This document shows, in pieces, positions 32,388 to 57,266 of a stretch of DNA of 64,000 bases (position 1 is the first letter of the stretch; the number at the start of each line of letters is the position of its first letter). The stretch is from a virus. The stretch covers positions 96,001 to 160,000 of IMG/VR virus record IMGVR_UViG_3300021197_001787; one strand, given 5' to 3'. The notes beneath the pieces are model-generated. The model had not been told where the DNA came from and searched no databases. It was given only the letters and a program-made list of their open reading frames with translations. The position numbers and the translations under genes are program-made.

Positions 32388-33427
32388 TTCCTAGTATTGA
32401 TATGCGTTCTGCTTTCTCCTAGACCGGCAGCAGTCTGTCTAACAAAAACTGCCTTAGACTGCAACTCTTTTAGGCTATAAGCACCCGAGTATGAAAAACC
32501 GCTTCGCAGACCGCGTTCAACATCTTGCAGAATACTGGCGACTTTACCACGATAAGGCACTTGGCTCGACACTCCTTCAAACGACGAGTACTTCCCTCTC
32601 CAACTCATTTGAGCTTCTTTAGAAGCCATGCCGCGATAAGACTTAAACTTAATTCCGTTCTCGCCCTCAAACACACTTCCTGGTGTCTCAGTGGTTCCTG
32701 CTAGCAGGCTCCCACACATAACAGCGTCTGCGCCGGCAGCAAGCGCCTTTACAATGTCTCCAGAGTTGCGGATGCCACCGTCAGCAATGATTGCAACATC
32801 GCGATCAGTCTTAGAACACTCAAAAATAGTCTGCAAACCTGGGAGGCCATGGCCTGTTTGGACTCTTGTTGAGCAGATAGAGCCACCGCCAATATTGCAT
32901 CGAACAGAATTGGCGCCCCAGTCAGACAGGTCATTGACCCCATCCAAGGTTGCAACATTTCCAGCCATAATATGAAAATCACTAGTTAAGTTGCGGACGC
33001 TCTCAAGGGCCTCTTTCATCAAAATATGATGGCCGTGGGCCACATCAATACATAGAAAGTCAACGCCGGCACTAATCAAAGCGGTCGCTCGCTCAAGAAA
33101 GTCGCCTGAAATACCTATCGCTGCACCGATACAAGGCACCTTGTCGCCGGCGAATTCATACGCATTTATAACTTCCAAAACTTGTTCTTCAATGGTATTA
33201 TAACGGTGGACGATGCCGGCGCCACCGTGTATACTAATTGCAGCTGCCATGCGGCCGCCGGTAATTGTGTCCATCGGCGAGGAAAAGATTGGCAAGGTCA
33301 GCGAAACGCCGTTTCCTAAATTGCTACCTATGTCAATATCCTTTCGCGAACGAATTTCTGAATATTGTGGCTGCAATAACACATCGTCGTAAGTCAATGC
33401 TGCCCTGCTCTGTTCACTATTTCTCAT
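32381..33427 (-). CDS. guaB: IMP dehydrogenase/GMP reductase family, no CBS domains
   Basis: LTYDDVLL, SSPMDT, IDVAHGH, GGGSICSTR (catalytic Cys), IADGGI, YRGMAS; IMPDH versus GMPR not resolved. Confidence 0.9.
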   Translation of the reverse strand: MRNSEQSRAALTYDDVLLQPQYSEIRSRKDIDIGSNLGNGVSLTLPIFSSPMDTITGGRMAAAISIHGGAGIVHRYNTIEEQVLEVINAYEFAGDKVPCIGAAIGISGDFLERATALISAGVDFLCIDVAHGHHILMKEALESVRNLTSDFHIMAGNVATLDGVNDLSDWGANSVRCNIGGGSICSTRVQTGHGLPGLQTIFECSKTDRDVAIIADGGIRNSGDIVKALAAGADAVMCGSLLAGTTETPGSVFEGENGIKFKSYRGMASKEAQMSWRGKYSSFEGVSSQVPYRGKVASILQDVERGLRSGFSYSGAYSLKELQSKAVFVRQTAAGLGESRTHINTRKW

Positions 33428-50187: not shown

Positions 50188-50216
50188 ATTATATCCCGCC
50201 GGGGGCCATGTGTCAA
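50188..50216 (-). promoter_or_regulatory. sigma70-type promoter of uvsE
   Basis: TTGACA-N17-TATAAT. Confidence 0.85.
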
Positions 50217-50219
50217 GTA

Positions 50220-51347
50220 TTATTTAGTAGTTTCTTCTTCATCATAGAAGTCAGCAGCGGTACCTTGCCGCTTGTCAAACTTCTGAATCACTTCGCTCTC
50301 CATAAGCTCAAGTACCTTGGCTCTGAACTCATCATCGGTCTTAACAAGCTCAGTCCACTTTGATGGCTGGAACTTCTTAGAATAATCTCCAGATGTCAAC
50401 GTGTACCATGAACCTGCCGATTGCATGTAATTTGAGCTTTTAATTGCGTCAAACCACGATTCTTCATCTTGGATTCCAATGTCTTGAGTTCCCCACAAGA
50501 TCCTGAATGTGCAGTTCCTGCCTTCAGTCCCAAAACGAGACTTTTCAAGCTTCACCTTGACCTCGGAACCAATCTTGAACCCCTTATCGTCCAATACTGC
50601 TGCTGCCTTAGACTTACGACCGGTTAGCCAAATCCTTAACGAGTACGAGTAGTGCATCGCCTTACCGCCGGGAGTGATATACGGGGTTGTCATTGCTATC
50701 TGCCGGGCCATGGGGCCATGGGGGATATTTGTCTTTAATTGATTAAGTACAATGAAAGTCGCCCTCTGATCGGCAATAGGAATGACCAGCTTAGACATAC
50801 CTTTGGCCAAGATTCGCGCTTTAGTGGCCACAGTAGACTGTGGATTAAAGTCACCCTCAACGTCAGAGACCGAAGGCGTAAACGCCAACGAATCCCAAAT
50901 AAACACCAATTGGTCGTCTGCTGCACCAAGGAGTTCTTCAATGGTTTCCAAAACAAATTCAACTGAAGATGCTTGAATGTACATTAAGTTTTCCAAGTCA
51001 CATCCTGCACGATTTAGAAAGTCGGGGTCAATTGCTGACTCCGAGTCAAAATAAACCACAAGCTTGCCTTGTTTCTGGGCATTCGCTGCAATTTGAGCAG
51101 CCATATAAGATTTGCCAGTTGATTGAAGACCAGCAATCTCGGTAATTTTTCCAACGGGAACACCAGCTAGCTGACCCTTACAAATGATAGAGTCAAGCCA
51201 TCTAGAGCCTGTTGGAATCCACTCCTTGACAGAAGTGGGATTGTCGGTGGTAAGATCGTGTGCCACCTCACGGCCGGCTTTTTTATTTACCAGCTTCATA
51301 AGATCATGCATAGATACACGACCTGCTTTAGTTTTGGCTTTTGCCAT
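50220..51347 (-). CDS. recA: RecA/UvsX recombinase
   Basis: IPTGS..LD, EIAGLQSTGKS, DSESAID, WDSLA, LNQLK, TPGGKAM. Confidence 0.95.
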   Translation of the reverse strand: MAKAKTKAGRVSMHDLMKLVNKKAGREVAHDLTTDNPTSVKEWIPTGSRWLDSIICKGQLAGVPVGKITEIAGLQSTGKSYMAAQIAANAQKQGKLVVYFDSESAIDPDFLNRAGCDLENLMYIQASSVEFVLETIEELLGAADDQLVFIWDSLAFTPSVSDVEGDFNPQSTVATKARILAKGMSKLVIPIADQRATFIVLNQLKTNIPHGPMARQIAMTTPYITPGGKAMHYSYSLRIWLTGRKSKAAAVLDDKGFKIGSEVKVKLEKSRFGTEGRNCTFRILWGTQDIGIQDEESWFDAIKSSNYMQSAGSWYTLTSGDYSKKFQPSKWTELVKTDDEFRAKVLELMESEVIQKFDKRQGTAADFYDEEETTK

Positions 51348-52588
51348 TATTCCTCCTTGAGTTGTTTGCTCTGTTTGAAAAACTTATTTTTTTGGTCATT
51401 CCACGAATACGCATGATCAGAGTCGCCGCAGTCTCTAAGTGCCATTGGTAGCACAACTTTGTCGATAATCGGAAGGTCCCAATCAATAGTTTTTTCGTTT
51501 AGGTTCCACTTTGTAAATTTTTGAAGCATAGTCTTGATCTCTTCATTACGCGATTCAATCTTTCTTAGACTGGAGCTTCCCTCTACGATGAGGTGAACTT
51601 TCACGTTATCAACCTTAGAAGCGCCGGTGTGAAATGGCTCAGCCAACTCACGGAATATGTTTCTTTCAAAAGTCTTCCATCGTGTTTGAAGTTGGTGGAT
51701 TTTCTTGTTGTTTGGATCTCTCATAGACCAGACCTCGGGGTCCCAATCGTATTGAATAAAGTGCTTCTTAAAACATTTTTTCAAATCCGCATCGCTGTAT
51801 TCTTTAATTGGTTGGCCATGTTCTTGAGAAAAAGCACTGTTATAGATGAGTGTTTGTTTAGATGCATCCCTAAAACTAAGAGGTTTGTTGGACAACATCC
51901 ACTTGTCAAACCACGTACGTCTAAAACCCTCTTTATCATCTTCTTCGCGCTTAATATAAGCAGAGCGGATCTCGCGCTCATACTTAGTAACCGATGAGGT
52001 GCCCTTTAAGTCAACATTGGTAATCTCTTCCCAAGCATCGTGGACTTGTTTAGCAAGGTCTTCCATTGAGTCTGTATCTTTGTCTTGTTTTGTCTCTGTG
52101 TTGCCCATAGAGGCGATTTTCAAAAGAATGTTTTGTTGTATATCTTCTGAGGTGTTGCCTTGGCGAATTATTAGAGCCTTGCCAAAATAATTATTTTCAC
52201 ATTCTCTTTTTCCATAGCCGCGGTGATTACCGACGCCTATATAGAGGAATTGCCCTATCTCAACCATTACGCAAGCGTAGTCAAGCGTCTCACCGTCATC
52301 AAATCTTGTAGTATAATTTTCACGCTTCTCTTTATTAAGGCCGTTTCTGCGTGATTGGGCCTTTTTCTGAAGATTTGAACTAGGAGGTGCGAAGGGTGCA
52401 TCCTTATAGTTAAACCGATTGTAAAACTCTGCTTCTAGATTGTGTTCGTCGACGAAGTCGGAGATTTCACGATAGCACGGATCTACTGAGTTAATCCCAG
52501 CAAAAGTTGTTTCAAATATGTCTTTTCCGACATGTGCGGTACCGAATTGAGTTTCAGTTGTTTCAAATAGTGTTCTTACACTTCCCAT
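51347..52588 (-). CDS. Hypothetical protein, possible ParB/Srx-like N-terminal motif
   Basis: 413-aa ORF; YIGVGNHR resembles the ParB (D/G)GxHR motif (weak). Confidence 0.65.
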   Translation of the reverse strand: MGSVRTLFETTETQFGTAHVGKDIFETTFAGINSVDPCYREISDFVDEHNLEAEFYNRFNYKDAPFAPPSSNLQKKAQSRRNGLNKEKRENYTTRFDDGETLDYACVMVEIGQFLYIGVGNHRGYGKRECENNYFGKALIIRQGNTSEDIQQNILLKIASMGNTETKQDKDTDSMEDLAKQVHDAWEEITNVDLKGTSSVTKYEREIRSAYIKREEDDKEGFRRTWFDKWMLSNKPLSFRDASKQTLIYNSAFSQEHGQPIKEYSDADLKKCFKKHFIQYDWDPEVWSMRDPNNKKIHQLQTRWKTFERNIFRELAEPFHTGASKVDNVKVHLIVEGSSSLRKIESRNEEIKTMLQKFTKWNLNEKTIDWDLPIIDKVVLPMALRDCGDSDHAYSWNDQKNKFFKQSKQLKEE

Positions 52589-52614
52589 AGTTTCCTCTTA
52601 TATAGTTTAAAAAT

Positions 52615-52643
52615 GGCACCCATTAACCGGGGTGCCAGCGGCT
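52615..52643 (-). ncRNA. Putative H-type RNA pseudoknot PK3
   Basis: AGCCG-CT-GGCACCC-CGGTT-AAT-GGGTGCC. Confidence 0.65.
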
Positions 52644-52648
52644 TTTTG

Positions 52649-52759
52649 TTACTCTGCTGCTGTATCTGCAGAGCTGGCGGTATCAGCCGCTGTGTCTTCA
52701 TCCTTATCCCCACAACCCATGAATAGGGTCGCAGCAAGGACTGGTAGAACGAGTCTCAT
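52649..52759 (-). CDS. Small acidic lipoprotein (36 aa, MRLVLPVLAATLFMGCGDKDEDTAADTASSADTAAE)
   Basis: Manually translated; AAGGAGA SD; lipobox FMGC; DTA repeats. Confidence 0.75.
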   Translation of the reverse strand: MRLVLPVLAATLFMGCGDKDEDTAADTASSADTAAE

Positions 52760-52778
52760 TTTCTCTCCTTAAAATAGC

Positions 52779-52807
52779 GGCAGACTTTTTACCGGTCTGC
52801 CAGCGGC
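52779..52807 (-). ncRNA. Putative H-type RNA pseudoknot PK2
   Basis: GCCG-CT-GGCAGAC-CGGT-AAAAA-GTCTGCC. Confidence 0.65.
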
Positions 52808-52816
52808 TGTTTGTCA

Positions 52817-53089
52817 CTACTCAGTTGTAGTTGTTTCGGTGGTAGTTGTTGTATCACCTGTCGTTTCAGTGGTTGTTCCACCTTCAGTAGTATCACCACT
52901 CGTTGTTTCGGTCGTGGTGGTGGAGGAAACTTCAATAGAATTTACAGTCTCCTCCATGGTGGTGTTGTCCGACACCGTTGTTGGCTCAAGAGTACATGTT
53001 CCGTATGCTGTGGCTACCACAAGGGCGCCTCCAACAAAACTAACTTGTACCTTCCATTTAGCCCATGCGGACTTCATCCAATCTAACAT
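52817..53089 (-). CDS. Membrane-anchored Thr/Glu-rich protein
   Basis: AAGGAGA SD; N-terminal TM segment, then T-rich low-complexity tail. Confidence 0.75.
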   Translation of the reverse strand: MLDWMKSAWAKWKVQVSFVGGALVVATAYGTCTLEPTTVSDNTTMEETVNSIEVSSTTTTETTSGDTTEGGTTTETTGDTTTTTETTTTE

Positions 53090-53120
53090 AATATATCTCC
53101 TTGTATGTTATTGAAAAGGG

Positions 53121-53151
53121 GCGCCCTATTATAACCGGGGCGCTAACGGTT
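53121..53151 (-). ncRNA. Putative H-type RNA pseudoknot PK1
   Basis: AACCG-TTA-GCGCCC-CGGTT-ATAATA-GGGCGC. Confidence 0.65.
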
Positions 53152-53154
53152 GAG

Positions 53155-53928
53155 TTAACCGGCCATTAGCTCATCAAAGGCCTTGTCAACATCGTTGGCT
53201 TCACTCTTTTTACCATATGATTCAGTTTGACGTGAGCGGCCCTCAGCGGACTTATCACTAGACAACTGCTCATCTAAAATGGCATCAACTTGCTCAGGCG
53301 TTAAACGCTCAAATAAGCTGTCAAAATCGGGCATATTTTCTAGAAGCCCAGGGATTGCTTCAGCGTCACTCAAAAGGGGACTTGTGTTACGACGCATCTT
53401 CAAATTAGTTTGTGGATACGCGCCGGGACGAGTTGGCTTCGTATAAGTAAGAGTGATATCGGTTCCCTCAACAGAATCGGTGATATCACCATATTCTGGA
53501 TCAAGAATATAACCCAAAAGCAACTCGTACGCAGTCTTGCCATAGCCATAGACCTTGACGCCTTCCTCTTCACGACCGCGAACCACAACCGGTGAGAAAT
53601 AACGTTGACGCACAAAAAGTGATTTAGCCAACTTCTTGCTCTCCTCATCGTTCTTCTCGGTGCCCTCACGCCACAAAGATGACGCGAAATCGCATACTGG
53701 GCAGCGTTCACCGAAGTTGCGCTTCGGACAAAGCACACCGCCCTTATGATCTCCCACATTATAGTGGAAGTACATTTCCTTCAACGGATCACCATCTGAT
53801 GTTGGTACGATCCGAATATCTTGGTCACCTTCATCTGGCTTAAACCAGTGTGAAGTACCATTATCTCTAGTTCCCTCACCACGCAATGTGGCAAGCTTTT
53901 GTTTCATTAGTTCCATGTTAATAGACAT
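53155..53928 (-). CDS. T4 gp32-like single-stranded DNA-binding protein
   Basis: WFKP..G...IRIVP, HY...CPK..FGERCPVC, VVVRG, YGYGK, acidic tail ending FDELMAG. Confidence 0.85.
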   Translation of the reverse strand: MSINMELMKQKLATLRGEGTRDNGTSHWFKPDEGDQDIRIVPTSDGDPLKEMYFHYNVGDHKGGVLCPKRNFGERCPVCDFASSLWREGTEKNDEESKKLAKSLFVRQRYFSPVVVRGREEEGVKVYGYGKTAYELLLGYILDPEYGDITDSVEGTDITLTYTKPTRPGAYPQTNLKMRRNTSPLLSDAEAIPGLLENMPDFDSLFERLTPEQVDAILDEQLSSDKSAEGRSRQTESYGKKSEANDVDKAFDELMAG

Positions 53929-53981
53929 TACTTTTTTCTCCTTTTGTTTTGATAAAGTATACTGAGCTTTCCTCAGCATCT

Positions 53982-54010
53982 AATGTATTACTCTTGAGCT
54001 AGCTTGTCAA
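53982..54010 (-). promoter_or_regulatory. sigma70-type promoter of SSB
   Basis: TTGACA-N17-TACATT overlapping end of tubulin-like gene. Confidence 0.7.
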
Positions 54011-54851
54011 GAGTTTTTTGTTGTATTACGTTGGTATGGGCAACGCAAAACCCAAAGTCTGTTTCAAAGGGTGACTCATAGATTGCATAGGATACATTTT
54101 TAAATGCATTCCTAGGCTTATCTTTAAGATGCCCAATGATCTTTTTATGTAAATCTCCGTCCTTTTCCAGTTTTTCAGTTGATATGCAGATATAATAACA
54201 TACATCGCGAGAGTTGTCAAGTTCATAATACCAATTTTCTTTAAGATTGTATGGATCAATACGACCAAGCGCACGGATCCGCTGTATATCCGAAGTTGAT
54301 TCTAAATTGCCGATAATCGGATTTGTATGATCAAACAAATTCTTATAATGCACACAATAATAGATAGTTTTGTTAATTGTATCAAAATACTTTTTGATTG
54401 GCACAGAGCCAATAGATTGCTCTAATGTTGGATTGCTAAATACAGTAAATGAATTAAACAGGCCTGAACGAGTGTACTCTTGTAAAATGCCAAAAATTGC
54501 TCTTTCTTGAAGCTTAGTGGTTCCGAGTAATAAGTCAGTATCTGGCTCAATGTAATAAATATCCATTTTTTTGTTTCTCAAATACTGTAGGATCGCGAGT
54601 GTTGCATTCGCCGTGCGGCCAGAGCCACACACAAATACTTGAACGTGATCGTTTATTGAAGAAAAGAATTTTGTAAGGTCAGGAATACTGCTTTCATAGT
54701 CTTCCAATTTTTCTTGATACTTAATTTTACGCTTGTATTTCGTATTACGAGTTACGTTATCAGAGAGAATATACGTATCGTATTCTTTATTATCTGTAAA
54801 GCAGTTGACCACGTTTTCGCCGGCTGTACCAATACCAACCAAAGAAATCAT
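53988..54851 (-). CDS. Divergent tubulin/FtsZ-like (PhuZ-like) protein
   Basis: LVGIGTAGENVV matches the T1 loop; VCGSGRTANA occupies the GGGTG signature position. Confidence 0.6.
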   Translation of the reverse strand: MISLVGIGTAGENVVNCFTDNKEYDTYILSDNVTRNTKYKRKIKYQEKLEDYESSIPDLTKFFSSINDHVQVFVCGSGRTANATLAILQYLRNKKMDIYYIEPDTDLLLGTTKLQERAIFGILQEYTRSGLFNSFTVFSNPTLEQSIGSVPIKKYFDTINKTIYYCVHYKNLFDHTNPIIGNLESTSDIQRIRALGRIDPYNLKENWYYELDNSRDVCYYICISTEKLEKDGDLHKKIIGHLKDKPRNAFKNVSYAIYESPFETDFGFCVAHTNVIQQKTLDKLAQE

Positions 54852-56032
54852 AACTGTAACTCCTTAAGTTCAAAATAGTTCTTGCCGGCGTTGATATTGC
54901 CGCGGAAGTGTCCAAGAACATTATTTTCAAATATATTTTTAATTAATGGCACCAAATCACGCTCCTGATCATGTAAATCAATAACTATCTCGTCGTGGAC
55001 AATGTGTGAAATAAACGACTTCTTATCATTTAAAAAATTGTCTATTTTAGTAGCGCGTTCCATGACCAAATCTGCAGTTGTACTCTGGATAAGATAATTG
55101 AAAGCTCTGCGTTCGTCAACCTTTATTTTTCGACCCATCGGGGTTGACACATAACCCTCGTTGTAATATTGTAACAAAATCTTATCTCTATTGTAGAGAT
55201 CGCTCTTGATTGTTTCGGATTCCGGATTGTACAACCAAGCAAAAAACTTTTCTTTTGATTCTTCGCGCGATACCACACCGCCAAATACATTTTTAGCGTT
55301 CCACTGGTGGATGTCCCAGTCAGGCTGCGGCTCATCCCCCAGCGCCAGTACTGTTCTCAATTCGGCGCCGTTATAGTCAAGGCTCAAGAACCAATCATTC
55401 TTTGGCTTAATTGTCTTACGATAAATCTTTTTCATAGTCAGTATTGGCAGCGAATTACTAAAAGTAGTAAGGCGACCAGTGACAGTGCCAAAAAGATTAT
55501 AATCAACATGCTGTGGGCCGTTGATGAGGCGATTAATCTGTGTTCTATCCCTTGTATTCGTCATCAATTCCCTGCAATCTTTGTTGTTAATTTCAAAATT
55601 ATGATATTTAATTTTGTGAAGCAGTCTGTGTACTTTGGCTAAATGTTCGTAATTACTAGGCTTTTCGTAATTTTCAAAAACAAATTTAGTTATTTGATTT
55701 TTTGTTTCGCAAAATTCAAGCAGAAAATCTTCTGGTACCAGATCATAGAAGCAAAGCTCTCTTAAGTCGATTCTAGCAATCCTAAAAGATTGTAAGTAAG
55801 CCTTAAACTTTGATTGGTTTGCTGAGAGCTGTGTTGATAATTCTTCCGGACAGACTTCTGCTAGATTTTGGCCGCCGGATCGTAACCAAGCGTATTCAAC
55901 GTCATTGTTTGAAATCGCGCCAGAATGACGCCATGTTTTAGTCAGATCTGTCGGTAATGCATCAAAATGTAGCTTACCGTTTACGTAGATACCAACACAT
56001 TCGGATTTATCGTCTAGGCTTTGAAAGTACAA
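54848..56032 (-). CDS. Family A DNA polymerase-like protein (compact polymerase domain)
   Basis: Motif A LDYNGAELR, motif B SKEKFFAWLY, FNYLIQSTTAD, motif C IVHDEIV. Confidence 0.85.
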   Translation of the reverse strand: MYFQSLDDKSECVGIYVNGKLHFDALPTDLTKTWRHSGAISNNDVEYAWLRSGGQNLAEVCPEELSTQLSANQSKFKAYLQSFRIARIDLRELCFYDLVPEDFLLEFCETKNQITKFVFENYEKPSNYEHLAKVHRLLHKIKYHNFEINNKDCRELMTNTRDRTQINRLINGPQHVDYNLFGTVTGRLTTFSNSLPILTMKKIYRKTIKPKNDWFLSLDYNGAELRTVLALGDEPQPDWDIHQWNAKNVFGGVVSREESKEKFFAWLYNPESETIKSDLYNRDKILLQYYNEGYVSTPMGRKIKVDERRAFNYLIQSTTADLVMERATKIDNFLNDKKSFISHIVHDEIVIDLHDQERDLVPLIKNIFENNVLGHFRGNINAGKNYFELKELQL

Positions 56033-57266
56033 CAGGTTCTCCAGTCTCTTTACGTCTTTTCATAATATAACTTAAAGAACCATTATAGTCAAATGGATGA
56101 TTGATAATTCTTTCAAAAACGATAGACGCACGAGAAGGTCCAATTGAATCATAGATTGAAAGGCAGTCTCTCATTATTCTTTTTTGTTCACTTTCGCTAA
56201 ACTTTTTCGGCTCTTCATTCATTCTTATTTCAAATAAAAATTTTAATACTTTTTTGTCGTCAAATATGTTTGAAAGCTTCTCTTCGCTATAACTGTCTGG
56301 GATAACATAGGTTGTTTTTAAGCGACCATTGCATTTCTCAACGACCGGTATCTTGTCAAGTTTAACCAATTTATACAACCGATGCAAGTACATTCTAAAT
56401 TTTTGATAGTAAATATAGTCGGCGCGCGTGTACCCTATATTCAAAATACGGTCAGTAGTTGATAGTTTGTACGCGGCGCCATATTCTAACATTTCGGGAG
56501 ACCCAATATCTGCCACAATCCGCCATGGTATATTCTTATCCACCATGAAGCCATAGCTTCTGCATGCATTTAAAAAGTACTTCCAATGCGGAGATGCAAC
56601 AAAGTTTTCAATTTTTTGTTGATCGTTAAAATAATCTAAGTCTGCTATTTCTATAGCCAAGCCGCTAGCATTAATGGGGCAATATTTACTTTTAACATAA
56701 GCCGAAAAGGTAAAAGGATACGAGGGTACTGTTTTCTGTAGTAAAAGCTTTAAATGGTGCATAAATTCTTGAAAGTTTCTAACGTGTATTTTGTTTTTAG
56801 AGAAGTGATTTTCTATTGCAGAGGTATATGTGTCTTGGTGTTCATTAAAAAGATCAATGGGGTTAACAAAAGATTTAAATACATTTAAAACACTCAAATA
56901 AGGGTGGCCAGGGTCTAATTTACCATCAGCAACTGCTTTTTGAAATTGTTGTTTTAAATCTTGAAAGGCATCAACAACAAAGTTTACAGCACTTTGGGCA
57001 GGACCATCGATGCTGGTAGAATCTAATGGCACTAGAGCCGCAGACGATGGGTTATCTAGAAAAATTGGAATAAAATTTCTAGTTACGCGTCCATATAAAA
57101 ATTTCTCACCAAAATTAAAATCAACTAGGTTTTTATATTCAGGATCGGAGAAATCAACATTCTCAAAAGCTGTCGTGGAAGCAAAAATATCATAATTATA
57201 TACCACTCTTTTGTTGAAAGTTAAAAAGGAGCCGTCGTCGTTATCAGTTATGTATAAATCTGCCAT
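56007..57266 (-). CDS. Hypothetical protein (possibly virion-associated)
   Basis: 419-aa ORF directly after hub-like gene. Confidence 0.7.
   Translation of the reverse strand: MADLYITDNDDGSFLTFNKRVVYNYDIFASTTAFENVDFSDPEYKNLVDFNFGEKFLYGRVTRNFIPIFLDNPSSAALVPLDSTSIDGPAQSAVNFVVDAFQDLKQQFQKAVADGKLDPGHPYLSVLNVFKSFVNPIDLFNEHQDTYTSAIENHFSKNKIHVRNFQEFMHHLKLLLQKTVPSYPFTFSAYVKSKYCPINASGLAIEIADLDYFNDQQKIENFVASPHWKYFLNACRSYGFMVDKNIPWRIVADIGSPEMLEYGAAYKLSTTDRILNIGYTRADYIYYQKFRMYLHRLYKLVKLDKIPVVEKCNGRLKTTYVIPDSYSEEKLSNIFDDKKVLKFLFEIRMNEEPKKFSESEQKRIMRDCLSIYDSIGPSRASIVFERIINHPFDYNGSLSYIMKRRKETGEPVVLSKPRR

What the first reader, a model, noticed from the sequence alone, without database searches (positions are those of the whole stretch)
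52615..53151. Three co-varying H-type RNA pseudoknots in consecutive intergenic spacers downstream of the SSB gene
Seen in sequence (minus strand): PK1 AACCG-TTA-GCGCCC-CGGTT-ATAATA-GGGCGC; PK2 GCCG-CT-GGCAGAC-CGGT-AAAAA-GTCTGCC; PK3 AGCCG-CT-GGCACCC-CGGTT-AAT-GGGTGCC. Stem 2 (6-7 bp) differs in sequence but pairs fully in all three. Stem 1 (RCCG:CGGT) swaps A-U for G-U. L1 is 2-3 nt, L2 is 0 and L3 is A-rich. Each starts a few nt after a stop codon and is followed by a U-rich stretch and the next gene's ribosome-binding region. Established: this is classic H-type geometry, and T4 gene 32 (SSB) mRNA uses a pseudoknot as a gp32 translational operator. Inference: a repeated cis-regulatory RNA acting as SSB-sensing operator, nuclease roadblock or terminator for the SSB-to-recA transcript; possibly an undescribed motif.
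Basis: partly seen in the sequence, partly recalled or inferred. Interest (0 to 1): 0.82.

Follow-up and report, generated by a model that had tools for sequence, protein, structure and literature searches.

The report
Portable RNA pseudoknot behind phage SSB gene
Three copies of a small, previously uncatalogued RNA pseudoknot sit after the single-strand-DNA-binding protein gene and two inserted mini-genes of a 194-kb marine phage; the same knot occurs in many unrelated phages and some bacteria, and it most likely acts as a leaky stop signal and end-protector for messages of abundant proteins and as a splice point for swapping genes.

Summary
The three elements are real. Each is a ~31-nt sense-strand element (53151-53121, 52807-52778, 52643-52614). 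A 6-8-bp G+C-rich hairpin has a loop that starts with CGGU(U). That loop pairs with (A)RCCG placed 1-3 nt upstream, giving an H-type pseudoknot with no loop 2 and an A-rich loop 3.

- **Copy number:** a covariance model finds only these three in the 194-kb genome.
- **Distribution:** the motif follows the gp32-like gene in all 54 distinct relatives examined and is single-copy in complete relatives. It recurs in T7-like and other phage contigs, prophages and bacterial 3' UTRs of several phyla.
- **Covariation:** stem 2 shows full compensatory changes, and so does stem 1 (ten alternative stem-1 sequences; 10 of 55 against 1.3 expected).
- **Prior description:** no Rfam family or paper matched.
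- **Context:** it lies mostly 5-14 nt after stop codons of abundant-protein genes (several unrelated SSB families, capsid, tail tube). A U-tract follows in about 65%.

Best reading: a leaky pseudoknotted terminator or 3'-end protector that also serves as the recombination junction for gene cassettes between gp32 and recA. An SSB-specific operator is unlikely. Its stem 1/loop 3 module matches SELEX pseudoknot aptamers to HIV-1 RT. The scan had noted this stretch only on this same DNA.

The parts
53121..53151 (-). PK1, the gp32-proximal pseudoknot. S1 is 5 bp (AACCG with CGGUU), L1 is 3 nt, S2 is 6 bp (GCGCCC with GGGCGC), there is no L2, and L3 is AUAAUA. It starts 3 nt after the gp32 stop.
   Evidence: Sequence. 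Model R1 scores it 33.5 bits, E 3e-7. An identical copy is present in L001-L004. An orthologous copy with varied S2 occurs in all 54 distinct gp32-downstream sequences.
53111..53120 (-). C/U-rich tail after PK1 (CCCUUUUCAA).
   Evidence: TTTT occurs within 12 nt after the motif in about 65% of family members, against a background of 4-8%.
52778..52807 (-). PK2, the canonical family sequence. S1 is GCCG with CGGU (outer pair G-U), L1 is C(U), S2 is (U)GGCAGAC with GUCUGCC(G), and L3 is AAAAA. It starts 9 nt after the ORF90 stop.
   Evidence: R1 scores it 56.4 bits, E 1e-13. The same 15-nt core occurs in 119 or more IMG/VR stretches and 55 bacterial contigs.
52614..52643 (-). PK3. S1 is AGCCG with CGGUU, L1 is C, S2 is UGGCACCC with GGGUGCCA, and L3 is AAU. 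It starts 5-6 nt after the ORF36 stop and is followed by UUUUU.
   Evidence: R1 scores it 48.5 bits. The terminator scan lists it. Homology with the 98%-identical relative L003 ends at 52623, inside this element.
53155..53928 (-). gp32-like single-strand DNA-binding protein gene (257 aa); its 3' end carries PK1.
   Evidence: Pfam PF08804, E 1.4e-16. There are 567 relatives in IMG/VR.
52817..53089 (-). ORF90, an accessory cassette between PK1 and PK2: hydrophobic N-terminus and Thr-rich tail.
   Evidence: It is absent from relatives such as L042, L026 and L065. No Pfam or PHROG match.
52649..52759 (-). ORF36, an accessory cassette between PK2 and PK3: a lipoprotein-like signal ending in Cys.
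   Evidence: It is present in L042 without ORF90 and absent from L031, L026 and L065.
51347..52588 (-). ORF413, an accessory cassette between PK3 and recA.
   Evidence: No family match. In L001/L147, whose flanks are 98% identical, an unrelated 415-aa protein fills the same slot.
50220..51347 (-). RecA-type recombinase gene, the conserved right-hand neighbour of the cassette slot.
   Evidence: Pfam PF00154, E 2.6e-35. Homology with all relatives resumes at about 51340-51376.

Best explanation
**What is shown.** The three elements belong to a widespread, uncatalogued family of 30-40-nt H-type RNA pseudoknots that form on the sense transcript between genes.
- Stem 1 is 4 bp, usually NCCG with CGGN'. 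Other complementary sequences occur in other phages.
- Loop 1 is C(U).
- Stem 2 is 6-8 G+C-rich bp, most often GGCAGAC with GUCUGCC.
- There is no loop 2.
- Loop 3 is A-rich and ends A-N-A/U.
- A U-tract usually follows.

**What is inferred about function.**
- The knot acts as a leaky intrinsic terminator and 3'-end protector placed right behind a gene whose product is needed in excess. Here that gene is the SSB; elsewhere it is capsid, tail tube or a binding protein.
- Most transcripts would end there or be trimmed back to it, while some read through into recA and the repair genes.
- Stem 1, with the A-rich loop lying in its minor groove, braces the terminator hairpin, whose 8-11-nt loop would otherwise be floppy.

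**What is shown at the DNA level.** One copy is fixed behind gp32 in this phage lineage. The two further copies arose because accessory genes (ORF90, ORF36, ORF413) were inserted or exchanged by recombination inside the roughly 30-nt conserved knot sequence, so each cassette is bounded by a copy.
For: **Structure**
- Stem 2 takes eight or more different sequences at the orthologous gp32 site and always pairs.
- On 144 sequences, six stem-2 pairs show changes on both sides, and the outer stem-1 pair reads G-U 56, C-G 28, G-C 17, A-U 7, U-A 5, U-G 3.
- GGCAGAC hairpins whose loop does not start with CGG were retrieved without regard to stem 1. Ten of 55 have 4-5 Watson-Crick stem-1 pairs of other sequences in the same register. 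The flank-swap control gave 1.31 +/- 1.10, with a maximum of 5 in 300 trials.
- Xanthomonas phage XAJ2 carries AGCG with CGCU.
- L070 and L073 have a 7-bp stem 1.

**RNA on the sense strand**
- G-U pairs are frequent. On the other strand they would be A-C mismatches.
- In the gp32 loci there are 101 motif hairpins on the coding strand and 0 on the other.
- In the broad set, 100 of 139 have a same-strand ORF ending just upstream, against 28 for the antisense strand.

**Terminator or 3'-end role**
- The median distance from stop codon to knot is 12 nt, and 59% lie at 5-14 nt.
- TTTT within 12 nt downstream occurs in 65% of copies (background 4-8%). In G+C-rich loci the figure is 34% (background 2%).
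- The stem-2 hairpins are worth -11 to -15 kcal/mol.
- Upstream genes are enriched for abundant proteins: SSBs of gp32, gp2.5/Enc34, phrog_9002 and bacterial SSB types, major capsid, tail tube, Hc1 and periplasmic binding proteins.

**Copy number and cassette borders**
- There is one copy per complete relative genome, directly behind gp32.
- Homology with relatives breaks at PK3 (52623), at PK2 (52772-52776) or at the gp32 stop, and resumes at recA.
- Relatives carry 0-3 cassettes in different combinations.
- Unrelated proteins fill the same slot.
Against: - No transcript ends or probing data exist. Termination and protection are inferred.
- About a third of copies lack a U-tract. Some sit directly on the next gene's ribosome-binding site (helicase class), and some lie upstream of a separate ordinary terminator (Bradyrhizobium). 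Termination therefore cannot be the only role.
- The near-identity of stem 2 across phyla is more than a terminator needs and hints at a sequence-specific partner or tertiary contacts.
- Stem 1 adds only about -4 kcal/mol of pairing energy. No pseudoknot-aware folding program was available.
- One subclass (S2 GGCAGAG, long loop 3) has an A/G mismatch at the outer stem-1 pair.
- The downstream genes have no evident promoters of their own in the 19-31-nt spacers, so any termination must be partial.
Confidence: 0.5

Rival explanations
1. Protein-responsive operator of the replication module. The knot nucleates binding of free SSB (or another replisome protein), which then spreads over the A/U-rich spacer and represses translation of the next gene (recA, exonuclease, primase, helicase). 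This would work like the T4 gene 32 operator, but would be placed 3' of the SSB gene.
For: - The knot lies directly after SSB genes of at least four unrelated families: PF08804, PF00436, gp2.5/Enc34-like and phrog_9002.
- Downstream genes are often RecA, RecE-like exonuclease, primase-polymerase, helicase or PolA.
- The spacers between knot and start codon are short, A/U-rich and hold the ribosome-binding site.
- In the helicase class the knot abuts the ribosome-binding site with no U-tract.
Against: - The same knot follows capsid, tail-tube, minor-tail, binding-protein and aldehyde-dehydrogenase genes.
- Unrelated SSB folds are unlikely to share one RNA specificity.
- The gp32 gene here has its own conserved 5' hairpin and A/U-rich leader, which is the expected place for autoregulation.
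- The distance to the upstream stop is tighter than the distance to the next start.
Confidence: 0.13
2. The element is essentially a DNA-level recombination handle (like PeSL repeats) or a mobile junction sequence. The RNA fold would be incidental.
For: - Homology breakpoints between close relatives fall in or at the knots, and cassettes come and go between them.
- The nearly identical 30-nt sequence occurs in unrelated phages and bacteria.
- Other repeat-bounded cassette regions were reported in this same genome.
Against: - Compensatory changes occur in both stems, G-U pairs are strand-specific, and orientation is strictly on the sense strand.
- The single copy behind gp32 is conserved in complete genomes that hold no cassettes.
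- Interleaved inverted repeats have no meaning for double-stranded DNA.
- There is no associated recombinase and no target duplication.
Confidence: 0.1
3. These are ordinary hairpin terminators. The stem-1 complementarity does not form in vivo or does not matter.
For: - Nested folding gives only the stem-2 hairpin as the minimum-energy structure, with modest z-scores of -1.3 to -2.0.
- Stem 1 is only 4 bp (there is no fifth pair).
- A U-tract is common.
Against: - Stem 1 co-varies over ten different sequences in a fixed register with no loop 2.
- Loop size (8-11 nt), the constant loop 1 and the A-rich loop 3 are conserved, which a plain terminator does not need.
- All 54 distinct gp32-downstream sequences keep CCG...CGG while stem 2 changes freely.
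Confidence: 0.07
4. The knot is a natural ligand of a polymerase nucleic-acid cleft (phage or host family-A DNA polymerase, or a defence reverse transcriptase). It would act as a regulator or decoy, as the look-alike SELEX aptamers do for HIV-1 RT.
For: - Its architecture is the same as the family-1 pseudoknot aptamers: a conserved UCCG:CGGG stem, an ANAA loop in its minor groove, and a generic second stem (PMC3561961; aptamer sequence in PMC1635251, fig. 1).
- Some copies lie just upstream of PolA genes.
- This operon begins with PolA.
Against: - The resemblance may only reflect a generally stable minimal fold.
- No RT and no T7-like RNA polymerase are encoded in this genome.
- Stem 1 can be replaced by other sequences, whereas the aptamers need UCCG:CGGG.
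- Contexts after capsid and metabolic genes do not fit.
Confidence: 0.06
5. The knot is a terminator-embedded sensor: it binds a small molecule or ion and tunes read-through.
For: - It is a compact pseudoknot of riboswitch size with highly conserved nucleotides, joined to a U-tract.
- Some bacterial copies precede EAL-domain genes.
Against: - The downstream genes share no metabolic theme.
- The element tracks the upstream stop codon.
- There are few unpaired conserved nucleotides to form a pocket.
Confidence: 0.04

Closest known systems
Family-1 pseudoknot (F1Pk) SELEX aptamers to HIV-1 reverse transcriptase
   Same: - Same H-type topology.
- A 4-bp first stem with the CCG:CGG core (UCCG:CGGG in the aptamers).
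- No loop 2.
- An A-rich loop (ANAA) that lies in the minor groove of that stem.
- A second stem of free sequence (PMC3561961 discussion; PMC1635251 fig. 1; compare).
   Different: - The aptamers are synthetic and were selected for binding a retroviral enzyme.
- The natural motif has a longer stem 2 (7-8 bp against 3-6 bp) and a conserved loop 1 (CU).
- It tolerates other stem-1 sequences.
- It sits in phage and bacterial operons that hold no RT.
- Binding to any polymerase is untested.
Intrinsic terminators and intercistronic stabiliser hairpins (for example T7 T-phi after the capsid gene, and REP sequences after malE; own knowledge)
   Same: - A G+C-rich hairpin close behind the stop codon of the most highly expressed gene of an operon.
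- Usually followed by a U-tract.
- Leaves downstream genes expressed at a lower level.
   Different: - The loop is large and pairs with the 5' flank to make a pseudoknot.
- The sequence is conserved across phyla.
- There are only 1-4 copies per genome, unlike REP.
- A third of copies lack the U-tract.
PeSL (promoter-early stem-loop) cassettes of T4-type phages (Arbiol et al. 2010, PMC2839356)
   Same: Repeated terminator-like stem-loops bound small non-essential genes, and recombination between the repeats inserts, deletes and replaces those genes.
   Different: - PeSLs include a strong early promoter. The spacers here (19-31 nt) hold only a ribosome-binding site.
- PeSLs are plain hairpins, number in the dozens per genome, and are lineage-specific.
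T4 gene 32 translational operator
   Same: An RNA pseudoknot linked to a gp32-type SSB gene and next to an A/U-rich unstructured stretch.
   Different: - The T4 operator lies 5' of gene 32 and overlaps its own start (PMC10690425, section 2.6). These knots lie 3' of the gene.
- These knots also occur after non-SSB genes.
- There is no sequence likeness that I could test.
Compact triplex pseudoknots of luteoviruses (BWYV type) and preQ1-I or guanidine-III riboswitches (own knowledge)
   Same: Size of about 30-40 nt, G+C-rich stems, a very short loop 1, and an A-rich loop in the minor groove.
   Different: - Those act in frameshifting or ligand sensing.
- There is no slippery site or open downstream frame here.
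- No Rfam model of these classes matched, even at E up to 10.

Membership tests
Classical H-type RNA pseudoknot | Two stems with interleaved arms: the 5' flank pairs with the hairpin loop. | tested here: met
   All three copies have this arrangement, and 95.9% of cells are paired on 144 sequences.
Classical H-type RNA pseudoknot | Both stems supported by compensatory change. | tested here: met
   - Stem 2: six pairs have changes on both sides, and eight or more stem sequences occur at one orthologous site.
- Stem 1: ten alternative sequences, 10 of 55 against 1.31 +/- 1.10 expected.
- All four stem-1 pairs vary on both sides in alignment A4, although its rows were chosen for pairing.
Classical H-type RNA pseudoknot | Loop lengths that can span the grooves: short L1 over a 6-8-bp stem 2, and L3 of 3 nt or more over a 4-bp stem 1. 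| tested here: met
   L1 is 1-3 nt, L2 is 0, and L3 is 3-14 nt, mostly 5-6 counted from the CGG. The stereochemical rule itself comes from own knowledge.
Classical H-type RNA pseudoknot | The fold forms in solution. | not testable with these tools
   No pseudoknot-aware folding or probing was available. Nested folding gives the stem-2 hairpin only.
T4 gene 32-type translational operator | Lies in the 5' leader of the SSB gene and overlaps its ribosome-binding site. | tested here: not met
   The knots lie 3' of gp32 and of two other ORFs. The location of the T4 operator is taken from PMC10690425.
T4 gene 32-type translational operator | Specific to SSB genes. | tested here: not met
   The knot also follows capsid, tail-tube, binding-protein and aldehyde-dehydrogenase genes.
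T4 gene 32-type translational operator | Bound by the SSB protein. | not testable with these tools
   This needs a binding assay.
Intrinsic (Rho-independent) terminator | A stable G+C-rich hairpin. | tested here: met
   The stem-2 hairpins are worth -11.2 to -15.3 kcal/mol.
Intrinsic (Rho-independent) terminator | A U-tract directly after the hairpin. | tested here: inconclusive
   TTTT occurs within 12 nt in 65% of copies (34% in G+C-rich loci), strongly above background, but it is absent in many copies and often starts 2-3 nt after the stem. The consensus scan lists PK3 fully and PK2 only as a shifted hairpin.
Intrinsic (Rho-independent) terminator | Small loop (3-5 nt is typical; own knowledge). 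| tested here: not met
   The loops are 8-11 nt in the window copies and up to 17 nt or more elsewhere.
F1Pk aptamer motif | Conserved UCCG:CGGG stem. | tested here: inconclusive
   The CCG:CGG core is present in nearly all copies, and the outer pair is C-G, G-U, G-C and others. Other stems occur as well.
F1Pk aptamer motif | ANAA loop following that stem. | tested here: met
   Loop 3 ends AAA (108), AUA (48) or AAU (23) in 227 copies, and its mean A content is 0.66-0.74.
F1Pk aptamer motif | High-affinity binding to HIV-1 RT. | not testable with these tools
   This needs a biochemical assay.
PeSL cassettes | A stem-loop repeat at the borders of exchangeable small genes. | tested here: met
   Breakpoints and cassette combinations are shown, and the unrelated occupants of one slot.
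PeSL cassettes | A strong early sigma-70 promoter inside each repeat. | tested here: not met
   No strong promoter lies in the 19-31-nt spacers. The only weak match overlaps PK1's tail.
Any Rfam 15 family | Score at or above the gathering threshold. | tested here: not met
   Only tRNAs were found in the window. Nothing relevant appeared at E up to 10 over 52400-53300, and nothing lay over the motif in 18 bacterial loci.
REP/BIME-type repeats | Tens to hundreds of copies per genome. | tested here: not met
   There are 3 copies in this genome, 1 in each complete relative, and 1-2 true copies in the bacterial genomes checked.

The most novel reading that the evidence does not exclude
The knot is nature's own version of the SELEX pseudoknot that plugs the primer-template cleft of a reverse transcriptase. 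It would be a portable RNA that binds a polymerase (the phage's family-A DNA polymerase, host Pol I, or a defence-associated reverse transcriptase). In doing so it would couple replication-gene expression to free polymerase, or blunt an RT-based defence. This would explain why its sequence is kept across phages of unrelated hosts.
Probability: 0.06. Interest if true: 0.9.

Novelty: new variant of a known kind. Interest (0 to 1): 0.72.

Why it matters
**If the reading holds**
- Phages of many hosts, and some bacteria, share one tiny portable RNA device that sets how much of an abundant protein's message survives and how much transcription runs on.
- The same 30 bases double as a docking point for swapping accessory genes.
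- It would be a pseudoknot-braced form of bacterial terminator or mRNA end-protector. I found no description of one in the papers searched.
- It would be a compact part for synthetic operons.
- It would be a natural test case for why SELEX against a polymerase converged on the same fold.

**Even without a settled function**
- It is a well-supported new RNA family for Rfam.
- Its link to SSB and capsid genes makes function directly testable in a cultured phage, Xanthomonas phage XAJ2.

Tried and rejected
- **Rfam:** both the gathering and the permissive thresholds gave no family.
- **Literature:** searches by motif sequence and by topic found no description. A catalogue of about 10,000 unnamed phage RNA candidates exists (PMC10690425), but its tables are not held, so I cannot exclude that the motif is listed there without a name.
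- **DNA search of cultured phages with the whole locus:** no match.
- **Short-motif blastn:** found only XAJ2 and faecal contigs.
- **A fifth stem-1 pair:** no covariation.
- **Generic H-type scan:** far too permissive to be informative.
- **T7-like RNA polymerase or RT as a partner encoded in this genome:** none found. The control genomes did not ring for the RNAP family, so that negative is weak.
- **Distant gp32 phages (Mel-JY01, immuto):** gp32 abuts recA there and no motif is present.
- **Chance 15-mers:** some exact 15-mer matches in bacteria are chance hits inside genes.
- **Ideas rejected by inspection of the sequence:**
  - a sigma-54 promoter (the spacing does not fit);
  - a Neisseria uptake sequence (one mismatch, wrong organisms);
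  - an integron attC site (no core sites, no integrase);
  - a tRNA-like acceptor mimic (no consistent RCCA after the helix);
  - stop-codon read-through or frameshift stimulation (no open downstream frame).
- **An alternative nested extension of PK2 (G12-C, C13-G):** it is not conserved when the closing base is A.
- **Not used:** no complex or structure prediction was run, because the object is RNA.
Full report
**1. The observation**

The window is bases 96001-160000 of a single 194,231-bp phage contig with 40.5% G+C. Genes in the region run on the minus strand:
- a family-A DNA polymerase piece;
- a 287-aa ORF;
- a gp32-like SSB (PF08804);
- a 90-aa ORF and a 36-aa ORF;
- a 413-aa ORF with no family match;
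- RecA and UvdE.

Coordinates are listed under 'parts'. A strict pattern scan and a covariance model (R1, which encodes only stem 2) find these three and nothing else in the whole genome: 56.4, 48.5 and 33.5 bits, with the next hit in the window at 11 bits. A loose scan for any H-type arrangement returns hundreds of chance candidates. The case therefore rests on the conserved family, not on geometry.

**2. The family is large**

- The gp32-like protein has 567 relatives in IMG/VR, and I held 80 loci at 78-100% identity.
- I took the DNA after the gp32 stop with no condition on stem 1. All 54 distinct sequences carry the element.
  - 45 were found by a blind hairpin search.
  - The other nine have a G-U pair, one mismatch or another register.
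- Stem 2 takes at least eight sequences across these sites, while CCG...CGG stays.
- Complete relatives of 203 kb and 187 kb hold exactly one copy, directly behind gp32.
- Distant phages with a gp32-like gene (Mel-JY01, immuto) have recA abutting gp32 and no element.
- A 22-base pattern, expected by chance less than once, hit 55 contigs of Bradyrhizobium, sphingomonads, Verrucomicrobiota, Lentisphaerota, Methylocaldum, Bacteroidia, an actinomycete and others.
- No Rfam family covers it, and I found no paper that describes it.

**3. Is stem 1 real?**

- On 144 sequences the outer stem-1 pair reads G-U 56, C-G 28, G-C 17, A-U 7, U-A 5, U-G 3, and unpaired 28. A fifth pair shows nothing.
- Those sequences had been picked with CCG and CGG fixed. 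I therefore fetched GGCAGAC hairpins whose loop does not begin with CGG.
- Ten of 55 have 4-5 Watson-Crick pairs between the 5' flank and the start of the loop. They keep the same register (L1 of 2-3 nt, no L2) but use ten different sequences.
- Swapping flanks among hairpins gives 1.31 +/- 1.10 such cases.
- Xanthomonas phage XAJ2 has AGCG with CGCU.
- L070 and L073 have a 7-bp stem 1.
- Added to canonical copies, all four stem-1 pairs show changes on both sides and no unpaired cell in the three inner pairs. The variant rows were chosen for pairing, so one search is the fair test.
- G-U pairs, the strict coding-strand orientation (101 against 0 in the gp32 loci) and the ORF-flank asymmetry point to RNA of sense polarity.
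- Some copies carry an extra small hairpin inside loop 3, as variable-length sites of structured RNAs do.
- Nested folding gives only the stem-2 hairpin (-11 to -15 kcal/mol). Stem 1 contributes about -4 kcal/mol as a duplex. Its stability in isolation is therefore marginal and probably depends on stacking and loop contacts; this last point is inference.

**4. Context**

- In 125 copies with a clear upstream ORF, the knot starts a median of 12 nt after the stop, with 5-14 nt in 59%.
- The next start follows a median of 29 nt later.
- TTTT lies within 12 nt downstream in 65% of copies from loci below 55% G+C (background 4-8%). In G+C-rich loci the figure is 34% (background 2%).
- I grouped the upstream proteins into 50 non-redundant clusters. 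The recurrent families are:
  - SSBs of several unrelated kinds (gp32-like, gp2.5/Enc34-like in three clusters, phrog_9002, bacterial-type SSB);
  - major capsid proteins;
  - tail tube and minor tail proteins;
  - a histone-like protein and periplasmic binding proteins.
- In Bradyrhizobium the knot lies in the 3' UTR of an aldehyde dehydrogenase gene, followed by a normal terminator.
- What these genes share is that their products are needed in larger amounts than those of the genes that follow.

**5. Cassettes**

- Alignment of the window against relatives shows homology running from gp32 to a knot and resuming at recA.
- In L003 (98% identical) homology stops at 52623, inside PK3. In L013 and L014 it stops at the end of PK2. 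In L018 it stops at the gp32 stop.
- Relatives carry different combinations of cassettes:
  - none (L026, L065);
  - ORF90 only (L031);
  - ORF36 only (L042);
  - other genes, plus a fourth knot (L001-L004).
- The 413-aa protein here and the 415-aa protein at the same place in L001/L147 are unrelated.
- One knot is therefore ancestral to the gp32 3' end. The others mark insertion or exchange points. This resembles PeSL-mediated shuffling (PMC2839356), but without a promoter in the repeat.

**6. Mechanism**

Shown:
- a conserved sense-strand pseudoknot;
- its position behind stop codons of abundant-protein genes;
- the U-tract enrichment;
- the cassette borders.

Inferred:
- It works as a leaky terminator and 3'-end protector whose hairpin is braced by stem 1 and the A-rich loop.
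- It thereby sets the ratio of SSB to downstream recombination and repair proteins.

Because the spacers leave no room for promoters, read-through must occur.

The T4-style SSB operator reading is unlikely. The knot is on the wrong side of the gene and is not SSB-specific. The gp32 leader also has its own conserved promoter palindrome, a covarying hairpin and a UAUACUUUA box.

What stays unexplained is the near-identity of stem 2 across phyla. It could reflect tertiary contacts, recent spread by recombination, or a conserved partner.

**7. Comparison with what is known**

The closest form is synthetic: the family-1 pseudoknot aptamers to HIV-1 RT. They have a conserved UCCG:CGGG stem, an ANAA loop in its minor groove and a generic second stem (PMC3561961; aptamer sequence in PMC1635251). 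That likeness is a lead for a polymerase-binding role (about 6%), or simply shows that this is a very economical stable fold.

I file the element as a new variant of a known kind (intercistronic terminator or stabiliser structures) and as a new RNA family. Earlier notes of this scan on the same genome describe other repeat-bounded cassette regions. This motif itself had been noted only on this same stretch.

Noticed in passing
window 53929-54016 (minus strand), and the same region of L001-L080: The gp32 leader is highly conserved. A sigma-70-like promoter has its -35 hexamer inside a palindrome (CTCTTG...CAAGAG). It is followed by a 5-bp hairpin with a GAAMG loop that co-varies among relatives (CUGAG, CCAAG, UCAAG, CUGUG, CUAAG, UCGAG), a constant UAUACUUUA box, and an A-rich run up to the ribosome-binding site. 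This is the likelier place for SSB autoregulation or 5'-end protection.
   Followed up: partly
window 52649-52759 and 52817-53089 (minus strand): ORF36 has a lipoprotein-like signal ending in ...LFMGC. ORF90 has a hydrophobic N-terminus and a Thr/Glu-rich tail. Neither matches any family, and each is present or absent independently among close relatives.
   Followed up: partly
window 51347-52588 versus L147:2904-4148: Two unrelated proteins of about 414 aa occupy the same slot between the last knot and recA in phages whose flanking DNA is 98% identical. This is a clean cassette replacement.
   Followed up: yes
L206:1900-2000 and L259 (Bradyrhizobium), and about ten further Bradyrhizobium species: A composite conserved 3'-UTR element: the knot (short loop 3, outer stem-1 pair mismatched), a CU-rich spacer, then an ordinary terminator hairpin. 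One copy lies downstream of an aldehyde dehydrogenase gene, and a second copy lies elsewhere in the same genome.
   Followed up: partly
L168, L179 and L099/L129: Some copies carry an extra small hairpin inserted in loop 3, for example a CCGG-GAAA-CCGG insert. Loop 3 therefore tolerates a nested helix.
   Followed up: no
window 50188-50216 (minus strand): A perfect TTGACA-17-TATAAT promoter lies just downstream of the recA stop (in the recA-UvdE spacer), upstream of the UvdE gene. The repair gene may therefore not depend on read-through from gp32.
   Followed up: no
window 54848-57266 (minus strand): The family-A DNA polymerase seems to be split over two ORFs (419 and 394 aa). Only the second was scanned, and it matches just the C-terminal part of the Pfam model.
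   Followed up: no
L254:2501-2535 (Xanthomonas phage XAJ2, KU197014.1, around 32484-32511): This is the only cultured phage in which I found the knot. Its stem 1 is AGCG with CGCU, and a U-tract follows. It lies in an unannotated 190-nt gap in the replication and recombination module.
   Followed up: partly
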